Source: a virus. Taken from it: a DNA stretch of 64,000 bases. Positions within the stretch are counted from its first letter, which is position 1, and each line of letters begins with the position of its first letter. This document shows, piece by piece, positions 2,303 to 51,694 of this stretch. The DNA lies in the IMG/VR virus record IMGVR_UViG_3300045988_075875; one strand, given 5' to 3'. Made by a program: the position numbers and the translations under genes. The notes under the pieces were generated by a model. That model worked only from the letters and a program-made list of their open reading frames with translations. It ran no database searches and had not been told where the DNA came from.

Positions 2303-2755
2303 ATGCTGTCATTGATTGACCAGTGCCGCGCGGTAAAAGAAGAAAAACACATCACCAACAAGGAGATCGCGGACGGCAGCGGAGTTCCTCTCAACACGGT
2401 GAACAATATGTTCCGTGCCACCACCCATTCCCCTACGTTGGAAACTCTCGGCCCCATCTGCGTTTTCCTCGGAATTTCCATTGACCAGTTTTTAGGGATG
2501 AAACCAACGGAAGATTCTACGCCACCGGAAACCATAGAGGAAATCATAAACCGGGAACTGTGTGTCTACCGTCAGGAGATCAACGGCCTGAACGCCCAGA
2601 ACGAACTTCTCCGGGAATTTATGGAACGTCAGTCCCACGGCATCCGCAACCGGGACCGTCTTTTGCGATGGATGTTGGTCCTTCTGATCTTCGTCTTGGC
2701 TTACGCCGTTTATCTGGACCTGCACTGTCTGGAATTTGGGTTCTTCCACGGCTGA
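2303..2755 (+). CDS. XRE-family HTH protein with coiled-coil and C-terminal transmembrane anchor
   Basis: 150 aa; AAGGAGG RBS; HTH ITNKEIADGSGVPLNTVNNMF; C-terminal LLRWMLVLLIFVLAYAVYL. Confidence 0.7.
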   Translation: MLSLIDQCRAVKEEKHITNKEIADGSGVPLNTVNNMFRATTHSPTLETLGPICVFLGISIDQFLGMKPTEDSTPPETIEEIINRELCVYRQEINGLNAQNELLREFMERQSHGIRNRDRLLRWMLVLLIFVLAYAVYLDLHCLEFGFFHG

Positions 2756-2775
2756 TACACACGGGAGGTGTGCGC

Positions 2776-3939
2776 ATGAAATGCAAAAACTGTAAGCGCG
2801 TCATTGACGATGATTCCATCTTCTGCAAATGGTGCGGCGAACGTCAGATCAGGGAGCGCAAAAAGAAGGGCGAGATCAAAGTCCCCTCCCCACGTCAGTT
2901 GAAGTCCGGCAAGTGGAACATCGAACTGCGGGCCGAAGGGCAAAGTATCACGGAGGATACCGCCGCTCTCTGCGAAGCCAAGGCCCGCGCCATCCGCGCC
3001 GGCTTTCTGGAAGCTAAAAAGGACGCAAAATGCAGTCTCACGCTTCTTCAGGCAATCGACAGTTATTTGAAAAAAAATCAATCTCTATCCCCGTCAACGA
3101 TCCGGGGATATGAGTGCATCAAAAAGAATCGCTTCCCCGGAAAGATCAATGCCAAAATACAGGACCTTTCAAATTGGCAGTCGGAGATCGACGAAGCCAG
3201 TGAAACCCTGTCCCCTAAAACGGTGTATAATTCATGGGGCCTTGTTTGCACCGTGATGCGGGATAATCACATCGCTCCGCCGGAAGTCCGTCTCCCTCAA
3301 AGCATAAAAAAAGACCTTCCCTGGCTGACCTACCAGCAGATTCTTGTTTTTGTAGACGCTGTGAGCGGCAGCCGGTTTGAAGTGGGCGCATTGCTGGCCC
3401 TTCACAGCCTCCGCCGTTCTGAGATATTCGGTCTTTCCTGGGAAAATATAGACTTAAAGAAAAAGCGGATTAAAATTCAGGGCGCACGGGTCATGGATAA
3501 AAACGGAGACTTTGTGTATAAAAAGACCAACAAAAACGTTTCATCTCAACGCACGATCCAAATTATGATCCCCGCCCTTTACGATCTCCTTTCACAGAGG
3601 AAAAGCGCCGGCCTTCCCATTATGGATTGTACTGAAAATTCTTTGCGCGGCGGCATCAACCTGATCTGCAAAAAGAATGACCTTCCTGAGTGCGGTGTTC
3701 ACGGTCTCCGCCGCTCCTTTGCCTCCCTCGGTTTCCATCTTGGGCTTAGCGAATTGGAAGTGCAAGAAATCGGTGGATGGAGCGACCACAACACCGTTCA
3801 CAAGATTTACCTAAAACTTGCCAAAGAAGATCGGCTCAACGCCGAAAACAAAATGGAGCGGTTTTACAAAAACCGAGGCGATGACACCGCTTCGGACGCA
3901 GAGCATACCCTCGAAAAAAAGCCTTGTGCGTCCGCCTGA
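2776..3939 (+). CDS. int: tyrosine site-specific integrase with N-terminal zinc ribbon
   Basis: Start moved to ATG 2776 (GGGAGG RBS), MKCKNCKRVIDDDSIFCKWCG; catalytic-domain motifs LHSLRRSE, HGLRRSFAS, GGWSDHNTVHKIYL; next to att site. Confidence 0.9.
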   Translation: MKCKNCKRVIDDDSIFCKWCGERQIRERKKKGEIKVPSPRQLKSGKWNIELRAEGQSITEDTAALCEAKARAIRAGFLEAKKDAKCSLTLLQAIDSYLKKNQSLSPSTIRGYECIKKNRFPGKINAKIQDLSNWQSEIDEASETLSPKTVYNSWGLVCTVMRDNHIAPPEVRLPQSIKKDLPWLTYQQILVFVDAVSGSRFEVGALLALHSLRRSEIFGLSWENIDLKKKRIKIQGARVMDKNGDFVYKKTNKNVSSQRTIQIMIPALYDLLSQRKSAGLPIMDCTENSLRGGINLICKKNDLPECGVHGLRRSFASLGFHLGLSELEVQEIGGWSDHNTVHKIYLKLAKEDRLNAENKMERFYKNRGDDTASDAEHTLEKKPCASA

Positions 3940-4263: not shown

Positions 4264-5223
4264 TTATTTGGCTTGCACGTCCTCCACATAGCACCAGCTT
4301 TGGGGTGGGCGACCGATAACCCGGCCATCACAGTCCATTTTGGCGTATTGATTTTTAGGGGTATTGCGGAATAACTCTCTGTACGACGGTGCAGAGTTGT
4401 TTTTCTTTTTTGGGTCAGGCTTTTGCACAATGATTATGTACTCATTTACATTTTTAAAGAGAAGATTTGGAGGATAGGGATAGCTCCCGAATATAGGACG
4501 CTGGGAAGTTGAAGATCCCCATCTGCCGCCAGTACCCTTCTTATTCCAAATAATTTGATTGATTAGTGAGAAACCAACAGACTGCGCAATTTTGGTTAAA
4601 TCCGATGCAATAGGGATTGTCACTAACCCATATTCTTTAGTATTTTGATTGACATTTGCAGTAACAATACAAAGCTTTCTACCAGGCATAAGAACACGAT
4701 AGCATTCTCTGACAACACTTTCCATGCTGTCAATGAAATCATCATAATATTCAAATCCACCAATATTTCCAATGTACTCGCCATAGTCTGCTTTGTTCCA
4801 GTAAGGAGGGGATGTAATTACGGCGCCGATACTGTTGTCCGGAATGGAGGCCATATCCAGGCAACTGTGATTGTGAATTACAAAAGCCCCATTTGCATTT
4901 TCGATGTTCTTATTTTGAATGACTTCGAGTAACCGCTGGGTTGAACGCTCATAGTACGTGGAGTTTGTTTCAAAACCTACATACTTTCTGCCGTTACTTA
5001 ACGCCGCTTCGCCAGTTGTACCGGTCCCCGAAAAGGGGTCAAGAATAGTTTCTCCCCAAAAAGAAAACATTCGTAGGAGCCTGTAGGGAATTTCGACAGG
5101 AAAGACCGCAGGATGAACGCTATCGCTAATATTTGCGATATCCCATACCGTCATTGTCCATTCTTTCCATTCTTCGCTTGTTATTTTAGATAGTTCTTTA
5201 ATTTCTTTAGTAATAGTGGCCAT
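4264..5223 (-). CDS. DNA methyltransferase (N4-cytosine/N6-adenine type), motif order FxGxG before SPPY
   Basis: Start set at ATG 5223 (GGAGG RBS; track start is TTG). HPAVFPVEIPYRLLRMFSFWGETILDPFSGTGTT then ITSPPYW; visibly AT-richer than its neighbours. Confidence 0.85.
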   Translation of the reverse strand: MATITKEIKELSKITSEEWKEWTMTVWDIANISDSVHPAVFPVEIPYRLLRMFSFWGETILDPFSGTGTTGEAALSNGRKYVGFETNSTYYERSTQRLLEVIQNKNIENANGAFVIHNHSCLDMASIPDNSIGAVITSPPYWNKADYGEYIGNIGGFEYYDDFIDSMESVVRECYRVLMPGRKLCIVTANVNQNTKEYGLVTIPIASDLTKIAQSVGFSLINQIIWNKKGTGGRWGSSTSQRPIFGSYPYPPNLLFKNVNEYIIIVQKPDPKKKNNSAPSYRELFRNTPKNQYAKMDCDGRVIGRPPQSWCYVEDVQAK

Positions 5224-6365: not shown

Positions 6366-6794
6366 TTACCTCCAAACCATATCGCATTTGTGGACTGCGC
6401 AATCTGTCAAAATAGCCTTGAAATCCCGGAACATGGCGCAGTCTTTTCTTCCAGAGTAGCCGTAGTGAATTTCATCATCATAGTCTCCAATCACCTTTAG
6501 GATCTCCTTGCAGGCCCCATAGTGGATACTACCGCCAGCGTCCGGTTGAAGCAGAAAATCCACTATTTTTACGGAAACCTTTTTCTCTCGGATTAAATCT
6601 TCTGTCCTTTTGTCGAAGGCATCAAAATACTGCTTCCGTGCTTCTCCCATAAAGGGGGCTTTGTCAATGCCCTGATAGTGATCCCAAAATACACCGCCGT
6701 GCAACTCTGCGACCTTATCCCTCAGTCGCTTAAATCCAAAATAGCCAAGGTCAATGCTCCGCCCGGTTTTCCGGCATAAAACTGTCATTCCCAT
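6366..6794 (-). CDS. hypothetical phage protein
   Basis: 142 aa, GGGGAGA RBS. Confidence 0.6.
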   Translation of the reverse strand: MGMTVLCRKTGRSIDLGYFGFKRLRDKVAELHGGVFWDHYQGIDKAPFMGEARKQYFDAFDKRTEDLIREKKVSVKIVDFLLQPDAGGSIHYGACKEILKVIGDYDDEIHYGYSGRKDCAMFRDFKAILTDCAVHKCDMVWR

Positions 6795-19381: not shown

Positions 19382-19711
19382 ATGCAAAAAATTGTTTTGA
19401 ACGGCATGACCTTTGACGGCGCATCCGTCCTTCGGGCCGTGGAGCAGGTGGACCTGTTACCCTGTGGCGGTGAAGGTATGACCTGGAATCCGTGGCAGAT
19501 CGCAACCCCGGAGGAATATGCCATGCGCCTTCAAAAGATCAATTCGGCTCACTGGGATGCGCTGGATGTTGGCGAGATCCAGCCGGGTCCTTGTCTCTCT
19601 GCGCGGGAGATCGTCAGAGGCGGATGGAAGTTTTTATATCAGGTCGATGGACGTGGAGACTGGCAGTCTCAATGCTTTACTGTATGTGAAGCGGTTCTTA
19701 AGAAGTCCTAA
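19382..19711 (+). CDS. hypothetical protein
   Basis: 109 aa, AGGAGG RBS. Confidence 0.55.
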   Translation: MQKIVLNGMTFDGASVLRAVEQVDLLPCGGEGMTWNPWQIATPEEYAMRLQKINSAHWDALDVGEIQPGPCLSAREIVRGGWKFLYQVDGRGDWQSQCFTVCEAVLKKS

Positions 19712-19751
19712 ATGTCAAAAACTCTATTGGATGGGTATGGTACAATAAAAT

Positions 19752-19785
19752 CAAGGGCGAGATAGACGCCGCCCTTGCTTTCCAT
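19752..19785 (+). terminator. terminator of rightward block
   Basis: CAAGGGCG-loop-CGCCCTTG then CTTTCC. Confidence 0.5.
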
Positions 19786-19856
19786 CTTTCTATCTTCCCT
19801 CACGCACGGCGGCTGCCGGCCTACCCAACGGCAGCCGCCAAACTCCAAAACAGTAT

Positions 19857-19929
19857 GGGCGAAAATTGTGCGAACAGGGTTTTTGGCTTGTCCTCTGTTC
19901 TTCCGGTTCAACTCCGGTTTCGCTCACCA
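19857..19929 (+). ncRNA. tRNA-like element (good acceptor stem, T-arm and CCA; aberrant D/anticodon region)
   Basis: GGGCGAA...CCGG-TTCAACT-CCGG-T-TTCGCTC-A-CCA; 7-bp acceptor pairing (one G-U); middle folds only as GAACAG/CTGTTC stem with 16-nt loop. Confidence 0.3.
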
Positions 19930-20039
19930 GCGGCGCGAATGCCGCACGTAGTATTCTCCTACCTTCCAAGCGTGGCCCGTAAGTACACGCTCGCCGTTCT
20001 CGGAGCGGTGCCCCGGTGCAACCCCGGCAGGGCAGCAAC

Positions 20040-20113
20040 GCGGATATAGTTCATCGGCAGAACGGCGGCTTCCCAAGCCGCGAAGGTGGGTTCGATTCCC
20101 ATTATCCGCTCCA
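20040..20113 (+). tRNA. tRNA-Gly (anticodon CCC)
   Basis: Hand-folded cloverleaf: GCGGATA/TATCCGC acceptor, GTTC/GAAC D-stem, GCGGC-TTCCCAA-GCCGC anticodon arm, GTGGG-TTCGATT-CCCAT T-arm, encoded CCA. Confidence 0.85.
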
Positions 20114-20657
20114 AGGGTGCACGAAGCGCCCTGCATGGATCGCAAAGCCTCCTGAATGTGTATGACAGCCCGGAAAGACGGGCCGCCACATCACCCGCCA
20201 TGGCGCAAACAAGGCGGGATCACGCAGACGTCCAACCGATACTTCTGTCCTTTCCACCGGGAGCCGGGGACCTCTCCGGCCGTCTGCACCATGCCCGCCC
20301 ACATAAGAGGTGGTTACTCTATAAAAAACCGTAGTGGGAATGAAACCTCCATGTCTGGCAGTGGAGTCGGCGGGTTGATACAGCCGCTATCGGGATGGTT
20401 TTCTCAGAGACACTTGAGCAACCTGACAGCCGGGAAAGACCGGCATCTATATGCAGACGTCCAAGCCGCGGACGATCACGTGGGGAGTTGGGGGCATCTC
20501 CAACCGTCTGCACCACATCCAGCGCCGTGAGAAGTATACACTCACAAACGGGTTGCCCGGAGATGGGCGCGGCAGGGCAACAGAAACGTGTACCTATGGG
20601 GGCCAACCGCAGGCAGCCGACACGCAGCGGTGACAGTCTGGAAAGACAGACAAACAT
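20114..20657 (+). ncRNA. candidate large structured ncRNA between two tRNAs (ROOL/GOLLD-like context; class unverified)
   Basis: 544 nt with no credible ORF; three TGACAG-stem-GAAAGA-stem hairpins (20163, 20424, 20631); duplicated modules closed by GCAGACG/CGTCTGC helices. Confidence 0.45.
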
Positions 20658-20732
20658 AGGGGTGTAGCCAAGCGGTAAGGCAAGGGACTTTGACTCCCTC
20701 ACGCGCTGGTCCGAATCCAGCCATCCCTGCCA
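20658..20732 (+). tRNA. tRNA-Gln (anticodon UUG), atypical T-loop TCCGAAT
   Basis: AGGGGTG/CATCCCT acceptor (one G-U), AGGGA-CTTTGAC-TCCCT anticodon arm, GCTGG-TCCGAAT-CCAGC T-arm, encoded CCA. Confidence 0.75.
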
Positions 20733-20760
20733 TTGAAATTTTAGGAAAGGAGGATGTCCC

Positions 20761-21036
20761 ATGAACAAGACTGAACTGATCGCCGCCGTGGCGGAGCGTT
20801 CCGGCCACACCAAGCACGATACCGCCATCATGATGGATGCCGTGTTCACCGTCATTGAGGAATCCCTGCTCAACGGCAGCGAGGTCAAAGTCCCCGGCTT
20901 CGGCAAGTTCGCCGTGAAGCACCGGGAAGCACGGGTGGGGAAAGACCCCCGCACCGGCGAGGAAAAGGAATTTCCCGCCAAGACGGTTGCGGTGTTCCGC
21001 CCCGCAAAGCCCCTGAAGGACGCCCTGAACGGCTGA
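20761..21036 (+). CDS. hup: HU-family DNA-binding protein
   Basis: 91 aa; MNKTELIAAVAE...GFGKFAVKHREARVGKDPRTGEEKEFPAKTVAVFRPAKPLKDAL, canonical HU/IHF fold sequence. Confidence 0.9.
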   Translation: MNKTELIAAVAERSGHTKHDTAIMMDAVFTVIEESLLNGSEVKVPGFGKFAVKHREARVGKDPRTGEEKEFPAKTVAVFRPAKPLKDALNG

Positions 21037-23796: not shown

Positions 23797-24876
23797 ATGC
23801 TCAAGAGTTACTATTTCGACGCGGCGGCCCACGAACCGCCTTCCCCTGCCGCGATCAAGGCGTTCACCCGCGCCCTGCCCCTTGGCAACCCAAGCGCCCT
23901 TCACGCCTGCGGCGTTGCCGCAAAGATCGCCTTGGAGGAAGCCCGCGCCTCCATCGCCCAGGACCTGAACTGTCTCCCGGAGGAAGTTTACTTCACCAGC
24001 GGAGCAACGGAAGCCTGCAACTGGATGATGAAAAGTCTGAGTGCCTACACCGGCAAGCTGGACTTCCCCCGCCATTACGAGCACCACTCCGTTTTGGAAT
24101 ATCCCCCCGTGGATCATCCCCACCGCACAGACCGCACCGGCTTCACCCACATGATGGCCAATAACGAGACCGGCGAGACTTACGACATTCTCTCCAGACG
24201 GCGAAACGCCCCCAACGCCCTGTTCGCCTGTGACGCGACGGCGGCGGTCGGCCAGATCCCCGTGGACTTCAAGGCCCTTGGCGTGGACTATCTGGCTTTC
24301 GGCGCTCACAAGTTCGGCGGCATCTCCGGCATCGGCTGTCTGATCGTCAAGAAAGACACGCCCCTGATTTCCATGATTCGCGGCGGAGATCAGGAGTGGG
24401 GCAAGCGCGGCGGCACCGAAAGCGTGGCCCTCGCCTGCGCCATGGCAGCGGCCCTCCATGAGCGCATGGACAATATGCTCTCCAACATGAAGCGGATCGC
24501 CCGTTGCCGCGACCTGCTGATTTCCTATTTGTTGAGGTTCGTCCCGGATACCTATGTCAACGGCCCCTATACCCCCGGTGACGTGCTCCTCCGTCTCCCC
24601 GGAAACGCCAACCTCTCTTTCCTTGGCGTGGAATCGCAGGCCCTTGTCATGGCCCTGTCTGCGGAGGGCGTGTACGCTTCCTCCGGCTCCGCCTGTACCA
24701 GCGGGGAGGCTGACGGAAGCTATGTCCTCCGGGCCATGGGCTACCCCGCCAACCGCGCCCGCTCCGCCGTCCGTTTCACTCTCCCCTATACCGTCACCGA
24801 GGATGATATTCTGGGCGCCGTCCCTCTGATCGTCAGCGCCGTGGAAAATCTCCGCCGCCTGACCCCTACCCCCTGA
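23797..24876 (+). CDS. cysteine desulfurase (NifS/IscS-like class V aminotransferase)
   Basis: 359 aa; PLP-lysine context AFGAHKFGGISGIGCLIV; catalytic Cys loop SSGSACTSG; AAGGAGG RBS. Confidence 0.8.
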   Translation: MLKSYYFDAAAHEPPSPAAIKAFTRALPLGNPSALHACGVAAKIALEEARASIAQDLNCLPEEVYFTSGATEACNWMMKSLSAYTGKLDFPRHYEHHSVLEYPPVDHPHRTDRTGFTHMMANNETGETYDILSRRRNAPNALFACDATAAVGQIPVDFKALGVDYLAFGAHKFGGISGIGCLIVKKDTPLISMIRGGDQEWGKRGGTESVALACAMAAALHERMDNMLSNMKRIARCRDLLISYLLRFVPDTYVNGPYTPGDVLLRLPGNANLSFLGVESQALVMALSAEGVYASSGSACTSGEADGSYVLRAMGYPANRARSAVRFTLPYTVTEDDILGAVPLIVSAVENLRRLTPTP

Positions 24877-24909
24877 TACCCGCCTGTTTAACTGGAAAGG
24901 ACTGATTTT

Positions 24910-25917
24910 ATGGGAAGAACCTCTGCGCAGGAGCGCCGGGTCATGTCGGCCTTAGACTCATGGCTCCGCAACGTGCAGGCCAGCGGCGCGGCGGAACGCA
25001 CCGTCACCGCCTACGCTGCCGTCACAAACAGCTTTTATTCCTTCCTCGTGGAAAGCGGCCTTTCCACCGAGGAACCCACCTTCACCACCATGCAAGCCTA
25101 CCGGGATCACCTCTTTGACCGTGGCCTCTCCCCTGTCTCCGTCCGGTATCATCTGGTGGTCCTCCGCTCCTTCTTCACCTACGCCAGCTCCCCCGAACTG
25201 GGCGAGGATCGCTTTTATGAGCAAAACCCTGTTTCCCTCTACCTGATGCCCTCCCTCCGCAAATTGGGAAAGCGCCCCTATGACGTGCTGCTCACCGATG
25301 AGCAGGTCTGCAAGCTCTGGAGGGATTCCCCAGTCCGCACCACCCACCCGGAGAACTGGCCCCGGAATTACGCCATCGTGATCCTGCTGCTGACCACCGA
25401 GCTGCGCAACGCCGAACTGCGGGCCTTGACCCCGGCGGACATCGACTTGGAGGAAGCCGCCCTCCGTGTGGAACACGGCAAGGGCGATAAATTCCGGGTG
25501 GTGGACCTGCCAGACATCGCCGTGATTGCCCTCCGCCATTACATTGCCAGCGGCATCCGCCCGGATGATCTCCCGGATACCGCCCCCCTGTTCGGCACCC
25601 TCCGTTCCGGGGAATGGAAGGCCGGCACAAAACAGTGGCTTTCGGAGCTGGTGGAGCGTCACGTCCGTTCCGTCACCGGCGTTCCGGACATCCGCAGCCA
25701 CGATCTCCGCCATGTCGGCTCCCGCTTGGATCTCAACTCCGGTATGCCCGAAAACGAACTGCAAGCCAAATTGGGCCATGCCAGTCCCGTCACCACCCAG
25801 CGTTATTCCGGGCGGCTCATGGACCGTTCCGGCCGGAAAAGCGCCAAGAAGGTCTTTGCCGAACGGGACTTGCAAGCCAAGCGCAGTGCCGACAAACTTG
25901 CCTCCTTTTCCGCCTGA
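24910..25917 (+). CDS. tyrosine recombinase, XerC/XerD-like
   Basis: 335 aa; N-terminal SAM-like core-binding domain, LLLTTELRNAE, HDLRHVGS, LGHASPVTTQRY. Confidence 0.8.
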   Translation: MGRTSAQERRVMSALDSWLRNVQASGAAERTVTAYAAVTNSFYSFLVESGLSTEEPTFTTMQAYRDHLFDRGLSPVSVRYHLVVLRSFFTYASSPELGEDRFYEQNPVSLYLMPSLRKLGKRPYDVLLTDEQVCKLWRDSPVRTTHPENWPRNYAIVILLLTTELRNAELRALTPADIDLEEAALRVEHGKGDKFRVVDLPDIAVIALRHYIASGIRPDDLPDTAPLFGTLRSGEWKAGTKQWLSELVERHVRSVTGVPDIRSHDLRHVGSRLDLNSGMPENELQAKLGHASPVTTQRYSGRLMDRSGRKSAKKVFAERDLQAKRSADKLASFSA

Positions 25918-26018
25918 TCCCTCAACATTTACCCTGAAATCAAAACACACGTCCGTGCGTTACTTCGCATGGGCGTGTGTTTTTATCGTGCGTTTTACGA
26001 AAGAAAGGACAATTTACT

Positions 26019-26666
26019 ATGATTTACGGCTATATCCGCGTCTCCACCGACAAGCAGACCTTGGAAAATCAGCGCCATATCATCCTCAATTACTGTGAAG
26101 TAAATGAGCTCCACATAGACGGCTGGATCGAGGAAACCATCTCCGGCACCAAGGCCCCGGACAAACGAAAGCTGGGCCAGCTTCTCCGCCATGTCCAGCC
26201 GGGAGACACCATCCTCTGTTCCGAGATTTCCCGCCTTGGCCGCAGCCTGTTTATGGTCATGTCCATCCTCTCCCTCTGCATGAGCAAGCGCGTCAGTGTC
26301 CACACCATCAAGGACGGCTTTGACCTCAGTGACGATCTCCAATCCAAGGTTCTTGCCTTTGCCTTTGCCCTTGCCGCCGAGATCGAGCGTCAGATGATCT
26401 CCCAGCGGACGCGGGAAGCGCTGGACCTCCGCCGCAGTCAGGGCGTCACCCTTGGCCGTCCAAAGGGTGCTTTGGGCAAGCACACCAAACTCTCCGACTA
26501 TGAATCCACCATCCGCGTTCTGATCGAGCAGGACAATTCCTATGCGGAGCTGGCTCGATTGTTCCATGTGGACCGTTCCACCATGAAACGCTTCTGCGAT
26601 GCGCGGGACATCAAACGCCCCTTTTCCCGCAGCGCCGCCGGTTTCATTTCCAACGTTGCGGGATAA
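26019..26666 (+). CDS. small serine recombinase (resolvase/invertase family, Hin/Gin/Cin-like)
   Basis: Start ATG 26019: MIYGYIRVSTDKQTLENQ (catalytic Ser), SEISRLGRS, C-terminal HTH YAELARLFHVDRSTMKRF; 215 aa is too small for a large serine integrase. Confidence 0.85.
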   Translation: MIYGYIRVSTDKQTLENQRHIILNYCEVNELHIDGWIEETISGTKAPDKRKLGQLLRHVQPGDTILCSEISRLGRSLFMVMSILSLCMSKRVSVHTIKDGFDLSDDLQSKVLAFAFALAAEIERQMISQRTREALDLRRSQGVTLGRPKGALGKHTKLSDYESTIRVLIEQDNSYAELARLFHVDRSTMKRFCDARDIKRPFSRSAAGFISNVAG

Positions 26667-49591: not shown

Positions 49592-50908
49592 TCAGCCGTT
49601 CATGCGGGCAAGCATTTCCTCAATGCCGCCGCCCTCACCGCTGTTGGTCTTGGGGTTGTTCCATGCGAAGGAATGCTGCTTGGCGGCCATTTCCTTCTTG
49701 CGCTTCTCGGTCTGTGCCTTGCCGTGTGCGGCCATCAGGTCCAGCACGGCGCGGTCTGCGCCGCAGAACTTCCCGTCAGTCTCCATGGCTGCGAACTCCT
49801 CTGCCCGGTCACACAGGCCCTTGGCAGTCTCGGTCATGTCGGCGTCGCCTTCCACGGCGCAAGCCTGGATGTCCTCCAAGGCACCGTTCACGGCTTCCTT
49901 CACGGCCTCCACCCGGCGCTCATGCTCGGCGGCTTCCATGGTGCGGATCTTTTCCTCCGCCTTGTCCAGACGTGCCTGCAGTTCTTTCACATCCTCCGCT
50001 TGCTGTCCCTTTGCGGCGCAGGCATAGTCCACGATGTCGCTTACCTCTACCGTGGCCTCCGCCCCTTCGCCAAAGGGGAAGGCTGCCGTGAGATAAGCGG
50101 GCTTGATGCGGCTCTCCACCACGGCGCCGTTATCCTCCGCGTTAAAGGCGTAGGTATAAGCGCTGCCGGCAGAGTCCACGAGGCCAACGTGCATCCCGTC
50201 CTCGCTCAGAGCGACCACGCGGTAGCCCGAGAATTTCTCGGACATGGCCTCCATTGCCTTCTTGCTCATGATGTTCACTCCTTTTCTCTTGTTCGTTTCG
50301 TTGCTTCCCTTTCCGGGGTCCAGAGACGCCGCCCGCAGTTTCAATGTCTTAAACTCTTCCTGCATGGCACTCAGCGCCTTGATCCGCGCCCCCGGAATTG
50401 CCGGCGGCACACCTTTTCCAAGGACCGTTACCGCCAAGCCTTCCCATTCCGTAAAAACTTCAATGTCTCCATCCTGGTAAGACTTACTTACAATGGTCTC
50501 CGCCGACACATCCATGCGCCCTGTCCGCACAATGAGATCGACAAGCTCCTTTGCGTAAAAGGCAAACAATTTGCCTTTTGCGGTGATCCATGTATGACCA
50601 TCTCTTTTTACAAGAGCAAAGTCCTTTTTGTCATCGGACAGCGTTCCGACGATGCGCTCCGCCGTCCCATCGAGGTAGGAATAGTATTCCTCCCCGGTCT
50701 TTGGGTCGATTTTCTTCCGGGCGTTGTGCCCATCCCCGATCTTTCCATTTACATAGGCAATCAGGATTGGACGCCCAACAAATGTCAGATAGTGGTTCTC
50801 AAGGTTTTGATAATTCCATTTATTCTGGTTTTCCGCGTCCCGCATGATCCACAGCTCCACTTCAAATTCGTGGTTGCTGATTTTTTGCAGAACCCGCAGT
50901 TCACCCAT
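49592..50908 (-). CDS. prohead protease / scaffolding protein candidate
   Basis: Start at internal ATG 50908 (MGELRVLQK...); C-terminal half is A/E/K-rich coiled coil; lies between portal and capsid. Confidence 0.45.
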   Translation of the reverse strand: MGELRVLQKISNHEFEVELWIMRDAENQNKWNYQNLENHYLTFVGRPILIAYVNGKIGDGHNARKKIDPKTGEEYYSYLDGTAERIVGTLSDDKKDFALVKRDGHTWITAKGKLFAFYAKELVDLIVRTGRMDVSAETIVSKSYQDGDIEVFTEWEGLAVTVLGKGVPPAIPGARIKALSAMQEEFKTLKLRAASLDPGKGSNETNKRKGVNIMSKKAMEAMSEKFSGYRVVALSEDGMHVGLVDSAGSAYTYAFNAEDNGAVVESRIKPAYLTAAFPFGEGAEATVEVSDIVDYACAAKGQQAEDVKELQARLDKAEEKIRTMEAAEHERRVEAVKEAVNGALEDIQACAVEGDADMTETAKGLCDRAEEFAAMETDGKFCGADRAVLDLMAAHGKAQTEKRKKEMAAKQHSFAWNNPKTNSGEGGGIEEMLARMNG

Positions 50909-51596
50909 GGCAGACGCCGGTTCCTTTTTCTTGATTCCCAATTTGTTTTCCCCCCTTATCTGGTATTCGCAGCAGCGTTTCCGCTGATTTCCCACGTCGC
51001 ATCCTTGCTCGGATCGTGCTGTCTGCTATTCCCGTTTCTTCCGCCCATTGGGCCACTGTCTTTTCTTCTCCATTCCATGTGATTCTTTTGTTCACACGGG
51101 TGTTGTTTAGCTGGGTTTTCATGGTCGCCCACCGGCAATTCTCCGGGCAATAGTTGCCGTTCACATCAATGCGGTCTATGGTGCATTCCCCTCTCGGTGC
51201 TGTTTCGTCATACCCGTTGGCAAGCGCCCAATCCCGGAACGCTTCAAAACTCTCAGCCCATTCTTTACAAACCGTGATGCCTCTGCCGCCGTAATGCCGA
51301 AAAGCGTTGCTTTTCTCGTTCCTACAACGCGATCTCATCCCAACCCAGACCCGGTAAAGATGTGTACGGCTTTCAAAGTGTTTTGTGTGATTTGGCGTAT
51401 GAGAAACCGATACCTCTAATCCATAGCAACCGCAGCTTTGGGTATGTCCGGTTCTTAGTGATTGTCCGCAAACCACGGTTTCCTTCCCGCAGTCGCAGAT
51501 ACAGCGCCATTGTGCTTGTGCTTTAGGGCTTTTTATCCGCTCAATCACTTGCAGACGCCCAAACCGTTGTCCGCTCAAGTCAATTAAACGTCCCAT
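50901..51596 (-). CDS. free-standing homing-endonuclease-like DNA-binding protein (AP2/HNH-associated type)
   Basis: ATG 51596; GQRFGRLQVI..CICDCG, LYRVWVGMRSRCRNEKSNAFRHYGGRGITVCKEW, C-terminal HTH-like WAEETGIADSTIRARM; AT-richer insert. Confidence 0.5.
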   Translation of the reverse strand: MGRLIDLSGQRFGRLQVIERIKSPKAQAQWRCICDCGKETVVCGQSLRTGHTQSCGCYGLEVSVSHTPNHTKHFESRTHLYRVWVGMRSRCRNEKSNAFRHYGGRGITVCKEWAESFEAFRDWALANGYDETAPRGECTIDRIDVNGNYCPENCRWATMKTQLNNTRVNKRITWNGEEKTVAQWAEETGIADSTIRARMRRGKSAETLLRIPDKGGKQIGNQEKGTGVCHG

Positions 51597-51694
51597 ATTC
51601 AATTACTCCCTTCGGTAATCCCCTTATTGATAAAACCGGGGAAGGCGGTAAGGGTGCCGCTTTTCGGGAGCTACCCTATCCCCTGTTTATCTAC

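What the first reader, a model, noticed from the sequence alone, without database searches (positions are those of the whole stretch)
20114..20657. A 544-nt repeat-structured non-coding segment between tRNA-Gly and tRNA-Gln: candidate large phage ncRNA (ROOL/GOLLD-like context)
The only ORFs here are antisense or overlapping shadow ORFs. The segment shows modular RNA-like structure. Three hairpins share the pattern TGACAG-stem-GAAAGA-stem (20163-20183, 20424-20444, 20631-20651). Two duplicated modules begin GCAGACGTCCAA (20224, 20453) and end CCGTCTGCACCA (20280, 20504), so each closes with the same 7-bp helix GCAGACG/CGTCTGC. There is also a 7-bp hairpin directly after tRNA-Gly (20114-20132). 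The large ornate RNAs ROOL and GOLLD are characteristically ~500-800 nt, found in Firmicutes prophages and adjacent to tRNAs, and size and context fit here. I cannot verify the consensus by eye, so it may be one of these or an undescribed class.
Basis: partly seen in the sequence, partly recalled or inferred. Interest (0 to 1): 0.8.

Follow-up and report, generated by a model that had tools for sequence, protein, structure and literature searches.

The report
Phage array of tRNA-like RNA genes
The 544-nt stretch is not one large ornate RNA: it is the middle of a gut-phage tRNA operon that carries short tRNA-like RNA genes, each preceded by a small hairpin that turns out to be widespread in unrelated phages and absent from Rfam.

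Summary
The interpretation as a single ROOL/GOLLD-like RNA is not supported: no Rfam family matches, even at E<=10.

The two "modules" closing with GCAGACG/CGTCTGC are tRNA-like genes. Each has a 7-bp acceptor stem, discriminator A and an encoded CCA, but no D-arm and no anticodon loop. Their three helices keep pairing through compensatory changes in about 30 related gut-phage contigs.

Those relatives gain, lose and swap whole units (4-8 units per array, counting canonical tRNAs). This fits an array of independent small genes within one tRNA operon (window 19857-20732), not one fold.

The hairpin TGACAG-stem-GAAAGA-stem lies 6-8 nt upstream of two 5' ends and 40 nt upstream of a third. It also occurs in at least 118 distinct viral contexts, always paired, with 24 stem variants, G.U wobbles and no A.C. 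At least 30% of these sit directly upstream of tRNAs. It is not in Rfam 15.

Most likely mechanism (inferred): RNase P and 3' trimming cut the transcript into tRNAs, tRNA-like small RNAs and structured spacers. What the tRNA-like RNAs and the hairpin do is unknown. No expression data were available.

The parts
19857..19929 (+). TL0: truncated tRNA-like gene. It has an 8-bp acceptor stem (GGGCGAAA/TTTCGCTC), a T-arm with a UUCAACU loop, then A-CCA. Relatives carry a 99-102-nt form with five helices.
   Evidence: ARAGORN at a relaxed threshold calls it 'tRNA-??? (gg)'. It gives a weak tRNA-Sec-model hit of 17 bits.
19930..20039 (+). Spacer S0. It has a hairpin directly after the CCA (GCGGC-GCGAAU-GCCGC) and a leader hairpin (GCCCCGGUGCAACCCCGGCAGGGC) ending 5 nt before tRNA-Gly.
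   Evidence: Sequence. Median identity among relatives is 96%. A similar CCCCGGTGCAAYYCCGG hairpin recurs in other spacers of relatives.
20040..20113 (+). Canonical tRNA-Gly(CCC), with encoded CCA.
   Evidence: ARAGORN; Rfam tRNA model, 62.3 bits.
20114..20132 (+). 7-bp hairpin that starts at the first base after the CCA of tRNA-Gly.
   Evidence: Fold. The stem is kept and the loop varies between 4 and 7 nt in 17 variants.
20163..20183 (+). HP1: UGACAG + 5-bp stem + GAAAGA loop.
20194..20218 (+). Second leader hairpin (CCCGCC...GGCGGG), ending 5 nt before TL-A.
   Evidence: Fold. The same hairpin sits in front of a different tRNA-like gene in the diverged relative L106.
20224..20291 (+). TL-A: 68-nt tRNA-like gene with no D-arm. 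It has the acceptor stem GCAGACG/CGTCTGC, a central hairpin with a 17-nt pyrimidine-rich loop (UACUUCUGUCCUUUCCA), a 7-bp hairpin with a tetraloop in place of the T-arm, then A-CCA.
   Evidence: Covariation is shown. Neither ARAGORN nor the Rfam tRNA model calls it.
20292..20423 (+). Spacer S2: conserved, with several hairpins. Variation among relatives falls in the predicted loops.
20424..20444 (+). HP2, ending 8 nt before TL-B.
20453..20515 (+). TL-B: 63-nt tRNA-like gene with no D-arm. It shares the acceptor stem and ACCA with TL-A, but has a different central hairpin (loop GACGAUCA) and a covarying 7-bp hairpin (GUUGGGG/CUCCAAC).
20516..20630 (+). Spacer S3: conserved and structured (about 98% identical among relatives).
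20631..20651 (+). HP3, ending 6 nt before tRNA-Gln.
20658..20732 (+). Canonical tRNA-Gln(UUG), with encoded CCA. The HU-like gene (20761-21036) starts 28 nt downstream.

Best explanation
The segment is the inner part of a roughly 0.9-kb untranslated tRNA operon (19857-20732) of a temperate siphovirus-like gut phage. The likely host is an Oscillospiraceae bacterium.

The operon interleaves two canonical tRNAs (Gly-CCC, Gln-UUG) with three tRNA-derived genes (TL0, TL-A, TL-B). These keep what tRNA-processing enzymes read: a 7-8-bp acceptor stem stacked on a second hairpin, discriminator A and an encoded CCA. They have lost or replaced the D-arm and the anticodon arm, so they cannot decode.

Inferred mechanism:
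1. The region is transcribed as one precursor together with the downstream HU gene.
2. RNase P cuts at each acceptor 5' end, and 3' trimming stops at the CCA.
3. This releases the tRNAs, the 63-73-nt tRNA-like RNAs, and the 110-160-nt structured spacers. Each spacer begins with a hairpin and ends with the UGACAG-stem-GAAAGA hairpin.

The tRNA-like body most likely serves as a natural processing and stability scaffold that displays a variable loop. My leading guess for TL-A is antisense pairing of its CU-rich loop (GUCCUUUCCA) with purine-rich ribosome-binding sites, as with the RNase P-processed C4/CI RNAs of P1 and P4.

The UGACAG/GAAAGA hairpin is a separate, widespread cis-acting RNA element of phage tRNA clusters and operon leaders. 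Its partner is unknown.

Shown here: anatomy, conservation, covariation, modularity and distribution. Inferred: transcription, RNase P processing and every function.
For: 1. tRNA-like anatomy. The 7-bp stem followed by A-CCA occurs at 20224-20291 and 20453-20515, and an 8-bp version at 19857-19929.

2. The same acceptor stem GCAGACG/CGTCTGC+ACCA closes paralogues of 63, 65, 68-70, 72, 74, 75, 77 and 81 nt in relatives. The longer ones have a canonical D-arm (TAGCTCAGTxGGxAGAGC) and T-arm (GGTTCAAGTCC) but an aberrant anticodon region. This shows that the short forms are tRNA-derived.

3. Selection on structure. In 22 distinct D-armless sequences, 97% of cells are paired, against 37-50% when the partners are slid. 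Five pairs change on both sides, including C-G -> U.G -> U-A in the acceptor stem and CC/GG -> UU/AA in the 7-bp hairpin.

4. Conservation. The spacers and leader are 96-99% identical among relatives, while the upstream ORFs are 84-91% identical.

5. Modularity. Arrays of 4-8 units differ by whole-unit gain, loss or exchange.

6. A 72-nt sister tRNA-like gene with an AGGAGGU loop occurs in 93 IMG/VR stretches, mostly in roughly 25-45-kb contigs of other lineages. It also occurs in phage-like regions of Dysosmobacter, Oscillospiraceae and Clostridia MAGs. It shows T-stem covariation, so this family is maintained across phages.

7. The hairpin. All 118 distinct viral instances are fully paired, with 24 stem variants, 17 G.U pairs and 0 A.C pairs. 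Shuffling the arms leaves 35 of 118 paired. It ends 3-8 nt before the tRNA 5' end in the cases ARAGORN calls, and T-loop k-mers are enriched on both sides. Annotated phages show it in tRNA clusters and in operon leaders, co-directional with the downstream genes.

8. Plausibility of processing. Bacterial RNase P cleaves hairpin-like substrates that lack a T-loop (4.5S RNA, P4 CI RNA, P1/P7 C4 RNA; PMC5499578). A 7-bp acceptor stem is a major determinant of cleavage (PMC4201824).

9. TL-A loop targets. All five non-self GGAAAGGA sites in the window lie just upstream of start codons. One is a perfect 10-nt complement (TGGAAAGGAC, 24893-24902) at the RBS of a recombinase gene. Both partners are conserved in 14 relatives.
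Against: - No expression or end-mapping data exist. No convincing promoter was found: the scan found none between 19300 and 21237, and only a -10-like TACAAT at 19741-19746 was seen by eye.
- RNase P cleavage of the D-armless forms is untested. Their acceptor plus hairpin stack is 14 bp, not the 12 bp of a tRNA, and they have no T-loop.
- TL0 is a deletion derivative in this window, and units are dispensable between relatives. That is also what decaying duplicates would look like.
- The covariation rests on few independent events among close relatives (about 90% identity).
- The antisense idea has no covariation support, because loop and target are both invariant. CU-rich loops match purine-rich RBSs easily by chance, and a 10-mer match somewhere in 128 kb is expected about once.
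- The proposed TSS-to-HU co-transcription is an inference from spacing only.
Confidence: 0.65

Rival explanations
1. One large structured ncRNA (ROOL/GOLLD-like, or a new class) spans the whole tRNA-Gly to tRNA-Gln interval and works as a single fold.
For: The size (544 nt), the phage context and the flanking tRNAs fit the known context of ROOL and GOLLD. The whole segment folds somewhat better than shuffles (z = -1.8 on the + strand, -0.9 on the - strand). The spacers are highly conserved.
Against: No ROOL, GOLLD or other large-RNA model matches, even at E<=10. The internal modules end in ACCA behind acceptor stems. Relatives delete, insert or swap whole ~230-nt units and still keep the rest at 90-99% identity. 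The minimum-free-energy fold keeps the local modules, and the long-range pairs are not supported by anything else.
Confidence: 0.05
2. The tRNA-like modules are decaying tRNA pseudogenes left by duplication and deletion in a tRNA array, and the rest is precursor spacer without a function of its own.
For: The modules are clearly tRNA-derived. TL0 in this window is a 28-nt deletion form of the 99-102-nt element. Units are present or absent among close relatives. Some longer paralogues have T-stem mismatches.
Against: The helices are kept through compensatory changes and the CCA is always retained. The same acceptor sequence is preserved across bodies that are no longer alignable. The D-armless forms persist in 29 viral stretches. 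A sister form is shared by many unrelated phage lineages. The spacers are more conserved than the neighbouring coding genes.
Confidence: 0.13
3. The tRNA-like RNAs are decoys or mimics aimed at host factors that read the acceptor end or the tRNA body. Examples are tRNA-targeting defence nucleases or nucleotidyltransferase toxins, CCA-adding enzyme, an aminoacyl-tRNA synthetase and EF-Tu. On this view they are not base-pairing regulators.
For: The acceptor stem plus discriminator A plus CCA is preserved at sequence level across very different bodies, which suggests a sequence-specific reader of that end. Phage tRNA arrays are discussed as anti-defence devices (PMC12803027 abstract). A Tad2-like anti-defence gene lies about 1.5 kb from a sister TL in L110.
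Against: No defence system or tRNA-acting enzyme was identified in the window among about 40 large ORFs. The anticodon loops that most known tRNA nucleases attack are absent. The sequence identity of the acceptor stems could also result from gene conversion between repeats.
Confidence: 0.12
4. The repeated elements work at the DNA level. The hairpin and the identical acceptor sequences would be recombination or cassette-exchange sites (or promoters) that shuffle tRNA cassettes.
For: Whole units are exchanged between relatives, with junctions near the repeated hairpin or acceptor sequences. The phage encodes two tyrosine recombinases and an invertase. Several hairpin copies are followed by TATA-like sequence at sigma70-like spacing from TGACA.
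Against: The stems covary instead of being conserved. The wobbles are strand-specific: 17 G.T pairs and 0 A.C pairs. That points to a folded single strand of the transcribed sense, not a duplex protein site. A -10 element is absent in most copies, and a start site would fall inside the tRNA. Homologous recombination between repeats explains the shuffling without a dedicated site.
Confidence: 0.05

Closest known systems
Phage tRNA gene clusters with co-transcribed small stable RNAs (e.g. the T4 tRNA region with its species 1/2 RNAs; recalled from memory, not checked here)
   Same: An untranslated array of tRNA genes on one strand with extra small structured RNAs between them. It is presumably matured by host tRNA-processing enzymes.
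   Different: Here the extra genes are recognisably tRNA-derived but lack a D-arm and anticodon loop. Paralogues share one acceptor stem. Each unit has a conserved leader hairpin.
C4 antisense RNA of phages P1/P7 and CI RNA of satellite phage P4 (Rfam C4 family)
   Same: Phage-encoded RNAs of 60-80 nt, cut out of a longer untranslated leader by RNase P although they lack a T-loop (PMC5499578). By established knowledge they act through loop sequences that pair with sites in phage transcripts. That is the model proposed here for TL-A.
   Different: No match to any Rfam family other than tRNA, including the C4 family, even at E<=10. The TLs carry a full 7-bp acceptor stem plus encoded ACCA and sit in a tRNA operon. 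Target pairing is only a sequence coincidence so far.
Viral or cellular tRNA-like RNAs made by tRNA-processing enzymes: MHV68 TMER vtRNAs, mascRNA, bacterial YrlA Y RNAs
   Same: tRNA mimics without decoding function that are recognised by RNase P, RNase Z or the CCA enzyme (PMC4838037; PMC4201824). They sit in tandem with other hairpins in one transcript (TMERs).
   Different: The systems differ (eukaryotic pol III, or Ro60-linked). No Ro60 or Y RNA features are present here. The hairpin lies upstream, not downstream, of the tRNA-like unit.
Engineered tRNA scaffolds for RNA expression (PMC3753655)
   Same: The anticodon arm is replaced by a cargo RNA, while the acceptor and T regions secure processing and stability. 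This is the logic proposed for the TL family, whose paralogues differ mainly in the central arm.
   Different: That is an artificial design. The natural TL-A and TL-B also lack the D-arm and the T-loop consensus.
ROOL and GOLLD large ornate RNAs
   Same: Phage or prophage location next to tRNA genes, and overall length of the non-coding interval.
   Different: No covariance-model match. The region is modular and divisible, and it is made of tRNA-like units with CCA ends.
Leader RNA elements that act on RNA polymerase: lambda nut boxB (5-bp stem, GAAAA/GAAGA loop; from memory) and HK022 put RNA (PMC9378689)
   Same: The UGACAG/GAAAGA hairpin is a short stem with a purine loop. It is found shortly after early promoters and before terminators in Rac-like/lambdoid prophage leaders, and in other operon leaders.
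   Different: The loop has six bases, there is a conserved 5' UGACAG, and no boxA was seen. There is no detectable similarity to put-bearing phages in a BLAST of one such leader. The motif occurs in phages of Proteobacteria, Cyanobacteria and Firmicutes, and often lies 3-8 nt before a tRNA. Antitermination would not need that position.
P4 core of bacterial RNase P RNA (CR-I GAGGAAAGUCCGGGC, CR-V CGACAGAACCCGGCUUA)
   Same: By eye, the hairpin reads like J2/4 plus the distal P4 strand (GACAG-CCGG) joined to J3/4 plus the P4 strand (GGAAAG[A/U]-CCGG). The E. coli rnpB sequence was read. The variant GGGAAAGTCCGGC occurs in relatives. The hairpin sits where RNase P acts.
   Different: Only 5-7-nt stretches are shared. 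The hairpin stem sequence is free to vary. No test of binding or homology was possible, so this may be coincidence.

Membership tests
ROOL RNA (Rfam) | Match to the family covariance model | tested here: not met
   cmscan of the whole window at gathering threshold, and of 19500-21000 at E<=10, gives no ROOL hit.
ROOL RNA (Rfam) | One indivisible ~500-600-nt fold conserved as a whole | tested here: not met
   Relatives delete, insert or swap ~230-nt units inside the interval.
GOLLD RNA (Rfam) | Match to the family covariance model | tested here: not met
   No hit at gathering threshold or at E<=10.
Canonical tRNA (RF00005 / ARAGORN) | 7-bp acceptor stem, discriminator base and 3' CCA | tested here: met
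   GCAGACG/CGTCTGC + A + CCA in TL-A and TL-B; an 8-bp stem + A + CCA in TL0.
Canonical tRNA (RF00005 / ARAGORN) | D-arm, 5-bp anticodon stem with a 7-nt loop, and a T-arm with the T-loop consensus, scored by the model | tested here: not met
   The Rfam tRNA model does not report TL-A or TL-B even at E<=10, and ARAGORN does not report them at default or ps80 settings. The folds show a central hairpin with an 8- or 17-nt loop and a 7-bp hairpin with a tetraloop. TL0 has a T-loop but is deleted for two arms.
C4 antisense RNA family (P1/P7 C4, P4 CI) | Match to the family covariance model | tested here: not met
   No hit in the window or at E<=10 in 19500-21000.
C4 antisense RNA family (P1/P7 C4, P4 CI) | Excised from a leader transcript by RNase P | not testable with these tools
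   Needs an in vitro RNase P assay or end mapping. The acceptor-like stem plus ACCA makes it plausible (PMC5499578, PMC4201824).
C4 antisense RNA family (P1/P7 C4, P4 CI) | Loop complementary to target sites in phage transcripts | tested here: inconclusive
   The TL-A loop has a 10-nt complement at the RBS at 24893-24902, 8-nt complements at four other RBSs, and a 12-nt complement on the - strand ending at 6610. Loop and target are invariant in relatives, so there is no covariation test.
HK022 put / lambda nut leader elements (for the hairpin) | Sequence or structure homology to put (two ~35-nt stem-loops) or to boxA+boxB | tested here: inconclusive
   The hairpin is a single 5-bp stem with a hexaloop. 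A prophage leader that carries it finds no HK022-type phage by blastn. No put or nut model was available to score.
Self-cleaving ribozymes in Rfam (hammerhead, twister, pistol, hatchet, HDV-like) | Match to a family model | tested here: not met
   No such hit at E<=10 in the region or at E<=1 in three other phage loci that carry the hairpin.

The most novel reading that the evidence does not exclude
Two undescribed RNA classes meet here.

(a) A family of natural "tRNA-scaffold" small RNAs in gut phages. They share one acceptor stem plus ACCA and have interchangeable central loops. One loop is anti-Shine-Dalgarno-like (TL-A). The widespread 72-nt sister carries a perfect AGGAGGU. On this reading the RNAs act on translation initiation or on specific phage mRNAs.

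(b) A 22-nt RNA hairpin found in phages of several bacterial phyla (UGACAG-stem-GAAAGA-stem-CA). It marks tRNA 5' leaders and operon leaders, and works through a universally conserved host machine. For example, it could mimic the P4/J3-4/J2-4 core of RNase P RNA and recruit or titrate the RNase P protein. Alternatively it could modify RNA polymerase like a minimal put or boxB.
Probability: 0.2. Interest if true: 0.85.

Novelty: new variant of a known kind. Interest (0 to 1): 0.58.

Why it matters
Phage tRNA clusters are usually read only as codon-usage or anti-defence tRNA supplies. This locus shows that such clusters can also carry conserved, non-decoding tRNA derivatives and structured spacers that are more conserved than the neighbouring genes.

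If the tRNA-like RNAs are processed and active, they would be a natural counterpart of the engineered tRNA scaffold, and a Firmicutes-phage analogue of the C4/CI immunity RNAs.

The leader hairpin is the more general lead. It occurs in phages of Proteobacteria, Cyanobacteria and Firmicutes, including cultured phages and about 10% of complete E. coli genomes. It is absent from Rfam 15 and from the searched literature. It is directly testable in E. coli prophages.

Tried and rejected
**ROOL, GOLLD or any Rfam family.** Nothing but tRNA was found.

**Similarity to cultured phages.** Only the two tRNAs match. The nearest primase is 53% identical, in Faecalibacterium phage FP_Toutatis.

**More distant primase relatives (about 60% identity).** They have no tRNA array next to the primase, so they gave no deeper alignment.

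**Hairpin as a sigma70 promoter (TGACA as the -35 element).** Rejected. Most copies lack a -10 element, a start site would fall inside the tRNA, the stems covary, and the wobbles are strand-specific.

**Hairpin as hammerhead, pistol or twister ribozyme, CRISPR repeat, sigma54/ECF promoter, ANTAR site or CsrA site.** The consensus sequences, compared from memory, do not fit, and no Rfam hit was found.

**Hairpin as HK022 put.** A leader that carries it does not match put-type phages. The put paper gives no sequence in its text to compare with.

**A partner protein encoded next to the hairpin.** All-against-all BLASTP of 3,662 ORFs from 120 loci found no family in more than 16 loci.

**Simultaneous pairing of the TL-A loop with both the UGACAG flank and the GGAAAG loop of the hairpin.** Rejected on strand topology.

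**A host tRNA with the GCAGACG acceptor stem.** The genome scan found only alphaproteobacterial tRNA-His genes, which are unrelated, and prophage copies of the 72-nt TL.

**E. coli K-12 Rac prophage.** It lacks the hairpin.

**One mistyped pattern** wasted a viral scan.

**Exact-sequence literature search** for the hairpin found nothing.
Full report
**1. What is in the sequence**

The window carries two tRNA genes on the + strand: tRNA-Gly(CCC) at 20040-20113 and tRNA-Gln(UUG) at 20658-20732.
- The motif TGACAG-stem-GAAAGA-stem occurs at 20163, 20424 and 20631. The three stems differ by compensation: CCCG/CGGG, CCGG/CCGG and TCTG/CAGA.
- The degenerate pattern matches exactly three times in 64 kb, whereas shuffles give 0.09 matches at up to one mismatch.
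- Two modules start with GCAGACGTCCAA and end with CCGTCTGCACCA, at 20224-20291 and 20453-20515.
- A 7-bp hairpin starts right after the CCA of tRNA-Gly.

The ORFs across the interval are shadow ORFs. In relatives the sequence they cross changes length by 1-2 nt, or is replaced outright.

**2. Context**

The window is a phage genome.
- It encodes a primase (phrog_19458), an HU-like protein directly after tRNA-Gln, integrases and an invertase, a tape-measure protein, tail proteins, a portal protein, an endolysin and an HNH endonuclease.
- No tRNA-processing or aminoacylation enzyme was seen among about 40 large ORFs.
- Cultured phages match only through the two tRNAs. The nearest primase is 53% identical, in Faecalibacterium phage FP_Toutatis.
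- IMG/VR holds about 37 close relatives, 65-72-kb contigs mostly from one human-gut data set.
- A sister element occurs in phage-like regions of Dysosmobacter, Oscillospiraceae and Clostridia MAGs, which suggests the host group.

**3.

No Rfam 15 family except tRNA matches the region at gathering threshold. At E<=10 on 19500-21000 there are only chance-level hits: a tRNA-Sec-model hit on 19856-19926 and a 9.5-bit archaeal RNase P hit in 20539-20609. ROOL, GOLLD and the C4 family are all absent.

The whole segment folds only modestly better than shuffles (z = -1.8).

The comparison with relatives is decisive. The region is 90-99% identical where present, but the arrays differ by whole units.
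- L030 has Gly, TL-A and Gln, with the TL0 region still present but not scored as a closed 7-bp stem (4 units).
- The window has TL0, Gly, TL-A, TL-B and Gln (5 units).
- L037 has eight units.

One large tertiary fold would not survive such changes. An array of independent genes would.

**4. What the modules are**

CGTCTGC-A-CCA is a tRNA 3' end. TL-A (68 nt) and TL-B (63 nt) have three parts:
- a 7-bp acceptor stem;
- a central hairpin, with a 17-nt CU-rich loop in TL-A and an 8-nt loop in TL-B;
- a 7-bp hairpin with a tetraloop, which abuts the acceptor 3' strand.

They have no D-arm, no 7-nt anticodon loop and no T-loop. ARAGORN and the tRNA covariance model do not call them.

In relatives, the identical acceptor stem plus ACCA also closes paralogues of 72-81 nt. 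These have a textbook D-arm and T-arm but an aberrant anticodon region. Examples are a 6-nt CGAAAU loop, an extended stem, and a loop carrying AGGAGGU. The short forms are therefore tRNA derivatives.

A third element, TL0 (19857-19929), has an 8-bp acceptor stem, a true T-loop and ACCA. Here and in L060 it is a 28-nt deletion form of a 99-102-nt five-helix element whose stems covary between relatives.

**5. Are the modules maintained?**

On 22 distinct D-armless sequences the three helices are 97% paired, against 37-50% when the partners are slid. Five pairs change on both sides:
- acceptor pair 6:67 goes C-G -> U.G -> U-A;
- the 7-bp hairpin switches GCCGGGG/CUCCGGC to GUUGGGG/CUCCAAC, and this same change also appears within the TL-A lineage;
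- the central stem switches G-C to C-G.

The CCA is never lost.

The non-coding parts (leader, S0, S1, S3) are 96-99% identical among relatives, while the upstream ORFs are 84-91% identical. Variation in the spacers falls in predicted loops.

The 72-nt AGGAGGU-loop paralogue occurs in 93 IMG/VR stretches, mostly on 25-45-kb contigs unrelated to this clade. It has 57 sequence variants and T-stem covariation.

These data argue against simple decay. The events are few and the sequences are close, so the support is moderate, not overwhelming.

**6. The hairpin is a general phage motif**

- All 118 distinct instances form the hairpin. There are 24 stem variants, 17 G.U pairs and no A.C pair. Shuffling the arms leaves 35 of 118 paired. 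So it folds in the sense strand, as RNA or as single-stranded DNA.
- Nothing outside the 22 nt is conserved.
- ARAGORN finds a tRNA starting 3-8 nt after the closing base pair in 18 of 117 contexts. Inspection and a stem heuristic raise tRNA or tRNA-like starts to at least 30%. T-loop k-mers are enriched on both sides. About 11% of copies are followed by a U-run. The rest lie in long leaders.
- No protein family is consistently encoded nearby.

In annotated phages it sits in these places:
- 9 nt before tRNA-Ser in Xanthomonas phage DIBBI;
- before the tRNA cluster of Stenotrophomonas phage Pokken;
- in the early leaders of Pseudomonas phage Medea1 and coliphage mEp390;
- about 65 nt after a promoter-like site upstream of the terminase genes of Cronobacter phage ESP2949-1.

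Rac-like prophages in 518 of 5426 complete E. coli genomes match a leader that carries it. There it lies about 45 nt after the early-left promoter. A degenerate second copy, GAGGAAAGACCAA repeats and terminators follow.

It is not in Rfam. No paper containing the sequence was found.

In the window, HP2 ends 8 nt before TL-B, HP3 ends 6 nt before tRNA-Gln, and HP1 ends 40 nt before TL-A with another conserved hairpin in between.

**7. Mechanism**

Shown: an untranslated array of tRNA and tRNA-like genes with conserved leader and trailer hairpins, followed after 28 nt by the HU gene.

Inferred:
- One precursor is cut by RNase P at each acceptor 5' end and trimmed to the CCA.
- This gives tRNAs, 63-73-nt tRNA-like RNAs, and spacer RNAs bounded by a 5' hairpin and the 3' UGACAG/GAAAGA hairpin.

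Two published findings make this plausible. Bacterial RNase P cleaves hairpin-like substrates without a T-loop, including the phage RNAs CI and C4 (PMC5499578). A 7-bp acceptor stem is a major determinant of cleavage (PMC4201824).

Paralogues keep the acceptor end and vary the central arm. I therefore read the tRNA body as a processing and stability scaffold, as in engineered tRNA scaffolds (PMC3753655), that displays a loop.

The TL-A loop GUCCUUUCCA is anti-Shine-Dalgarno-like.
- All five non-self GGAAAGGA sites in the window are ribosome-binding sites.
- One is a perfect 10-nt match, at the RBS of the recombinase gene 24910-25917. Both partners are conserved in 14 relatives.
- There is also a 12-nt match on the - strand ending at 6610.

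This is a lead, not evidence. No covariation is available, and such loops match RBSs easily.

A decoy role for the conserved acceptor end is the main functional alternative.

**8. What the hairpin might do**

Its positions suggest a cis-acting RNA signal read by a universally conserved host machine. It is found at tRNA 5' leaders, in operon leaders after promoters and before terminators, and sometimes before a U-run.

Two candidates stand out:
- processing or stability, defining or protecting the 3' end of the upstream RNA after RNase P cleavage or termination;
- control of elongation or termination, like nut boxB or put (PMC9378689).

By eye the motif resembles the P4 core of RNase P RNA. E. 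coli rnpB reads GGAGGAAAGTCCGGGC and CGACAGAACCCGGCTTA. The hairpin reads TGACAG-CCGG-GAAAGA/T-CCGG. I could not test this, and I treat it as a possible coincidence.

**9. Verdict**

The interpretation as a ROOL/GOLLD-like large RNA is not supported.

The locus is a phage tRNA operon with non-decoding tRNA derivatives. That makes it a new variant of a known kind.

It also exposes a widespread hairpin motif that appears to be undescribed. All functional statements await expression and processing data.

Noticed in passing
window 20163-20183, 20424-20444, 20631-20651; loci L126-L245; L246-L253: The UGACAG-stem-GAAAGA-stem-CA hairpin is not private to this phage. The motif is also found in cultured phages of Stenotrophomonas, Xanthomonas, Pseudomonas, E. 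coli, Cronobacter, Acinetobacter and Planktothrix. It is often 3-8 nt before a tRNA. It is not in Rfam 15.
   Followed up: partly
relatives L002, L006, L014 etc.; L256-L338; MAG loci L110, L113, L118 (not in the window): A 72-nt tRNA-like gene has the same GCAGACG acceptor stem and normal D- and T-arms, but carries a loop reading AGGAGGU (a perfect Shine-Dalgarno sequence) where the anticodon arm should be. It occurs in 93 IMG/VR stretches, mostly ~25-45-kb gut-phage contigs of other lineages, and in phage-like regions of Dysosmobacter, Oscillospiraceae and Clostridia MAGs.
   Followed up: partly
window 19857-19929; L031-L065 equivalents: TL0 is a 73-nt deletion form (found only here and in L060) of a 99-102-nt five-helix tRNA-like element. 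That element has an 8-bp acceptor stem, a 4-nt D-like loop, a 6-bp stem with a 9-nt loop, a long extra arm and a true T-loop. The layout is reminiscent of class II or Sec tRNAs. Its stems covary between two sequence types.
   Followed up: partly
window 24893-24902 (+), 20744-20751 (+), 12304 (+), 12090 (-), 38137 (-), 6599-6610 (-): Sequences complementary to the TL-A loop. There is a perfect 10-mer TGGAAAGGAC at the RBS of the recombinase gene 24910-25917. There are 8-mers at four other RBSs, including the adjacent HU gene. There is a 12-mer inside a minus-strand ORF.
   Followed up: partly
window 51621-51686 (-): A match to the Rfam int-alpA RNA above gathering score (53.7 bits), next to an HNH endonuclease ORF (50901-51602, - strand).
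   Followed up: no
window 20194-20218 and 20011-20036; L106 5625-5655: Two further leader hairpin types end about 5 nt before tRNA or tRNA-like 5' ends. CCCGCC...GGCGGG precedes TL-A, and precedes a different tRNA-like gene in L106. GCCCCGGUGCAACCCCGGCAGGGC precedes tRNA-Gly, and a similar copy recurs in spacers of relatives.
   Followed up: no
L218, L223, L238, L216, L249 (Rac-like E. coli or enterobacterial prophages): Early-left leaders of about 500 nt carry the hairpin, a degenerate second copy (TGACATGCGGGAAAGACCGCAA), several GAGGAAAGACCAA repeats, hairpins with GACCAA loops and strong terminators. Downstream is a box, GCTGTGTGTAGTC, that is also present in the annotated KilS sRNA of E. 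coli K-12 Rac.
   Followed up: partly
L215 (+) about 4436-4530; L185 (+): Unrelated viral contigs carry the hairpin directly upstream of other non-canonical tRNA-like genes with ACCA. One is a 62-nt form with D- and T-arms but no anticodon arm.
   Followed up: no
window 20539-20609: A chance-level hit of the archaeal RNase P model (9.5 bits, E = 4.9) lies in spacer S3. That spacer contains GGGCAACAGAAAC, which resembles the conserved GUGCAACAGA stretch of RNase P RNA.
   Followed up: no
window 19748-19781 and 19808-19839: Upstream of the array there is a bidirectional terminator-like hairpin, scored as a terminator on the - strand. There is also a perfect 11-bp hairpin, GGCGGCUGCCG...CGGCAGCCGCC (z = -4.1 for 19760-19855). 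Both are about 99% conserved in relatives.
   Followed up: no
window 23797-26666: A cluster comprises a phrog_12787 protein, a tyrosine recombinase (24910-25917) and a serine invertase (25977-26666). It lies in the middle of the genome, in addition to an integrase at 2560-3939.
   Followed up: no
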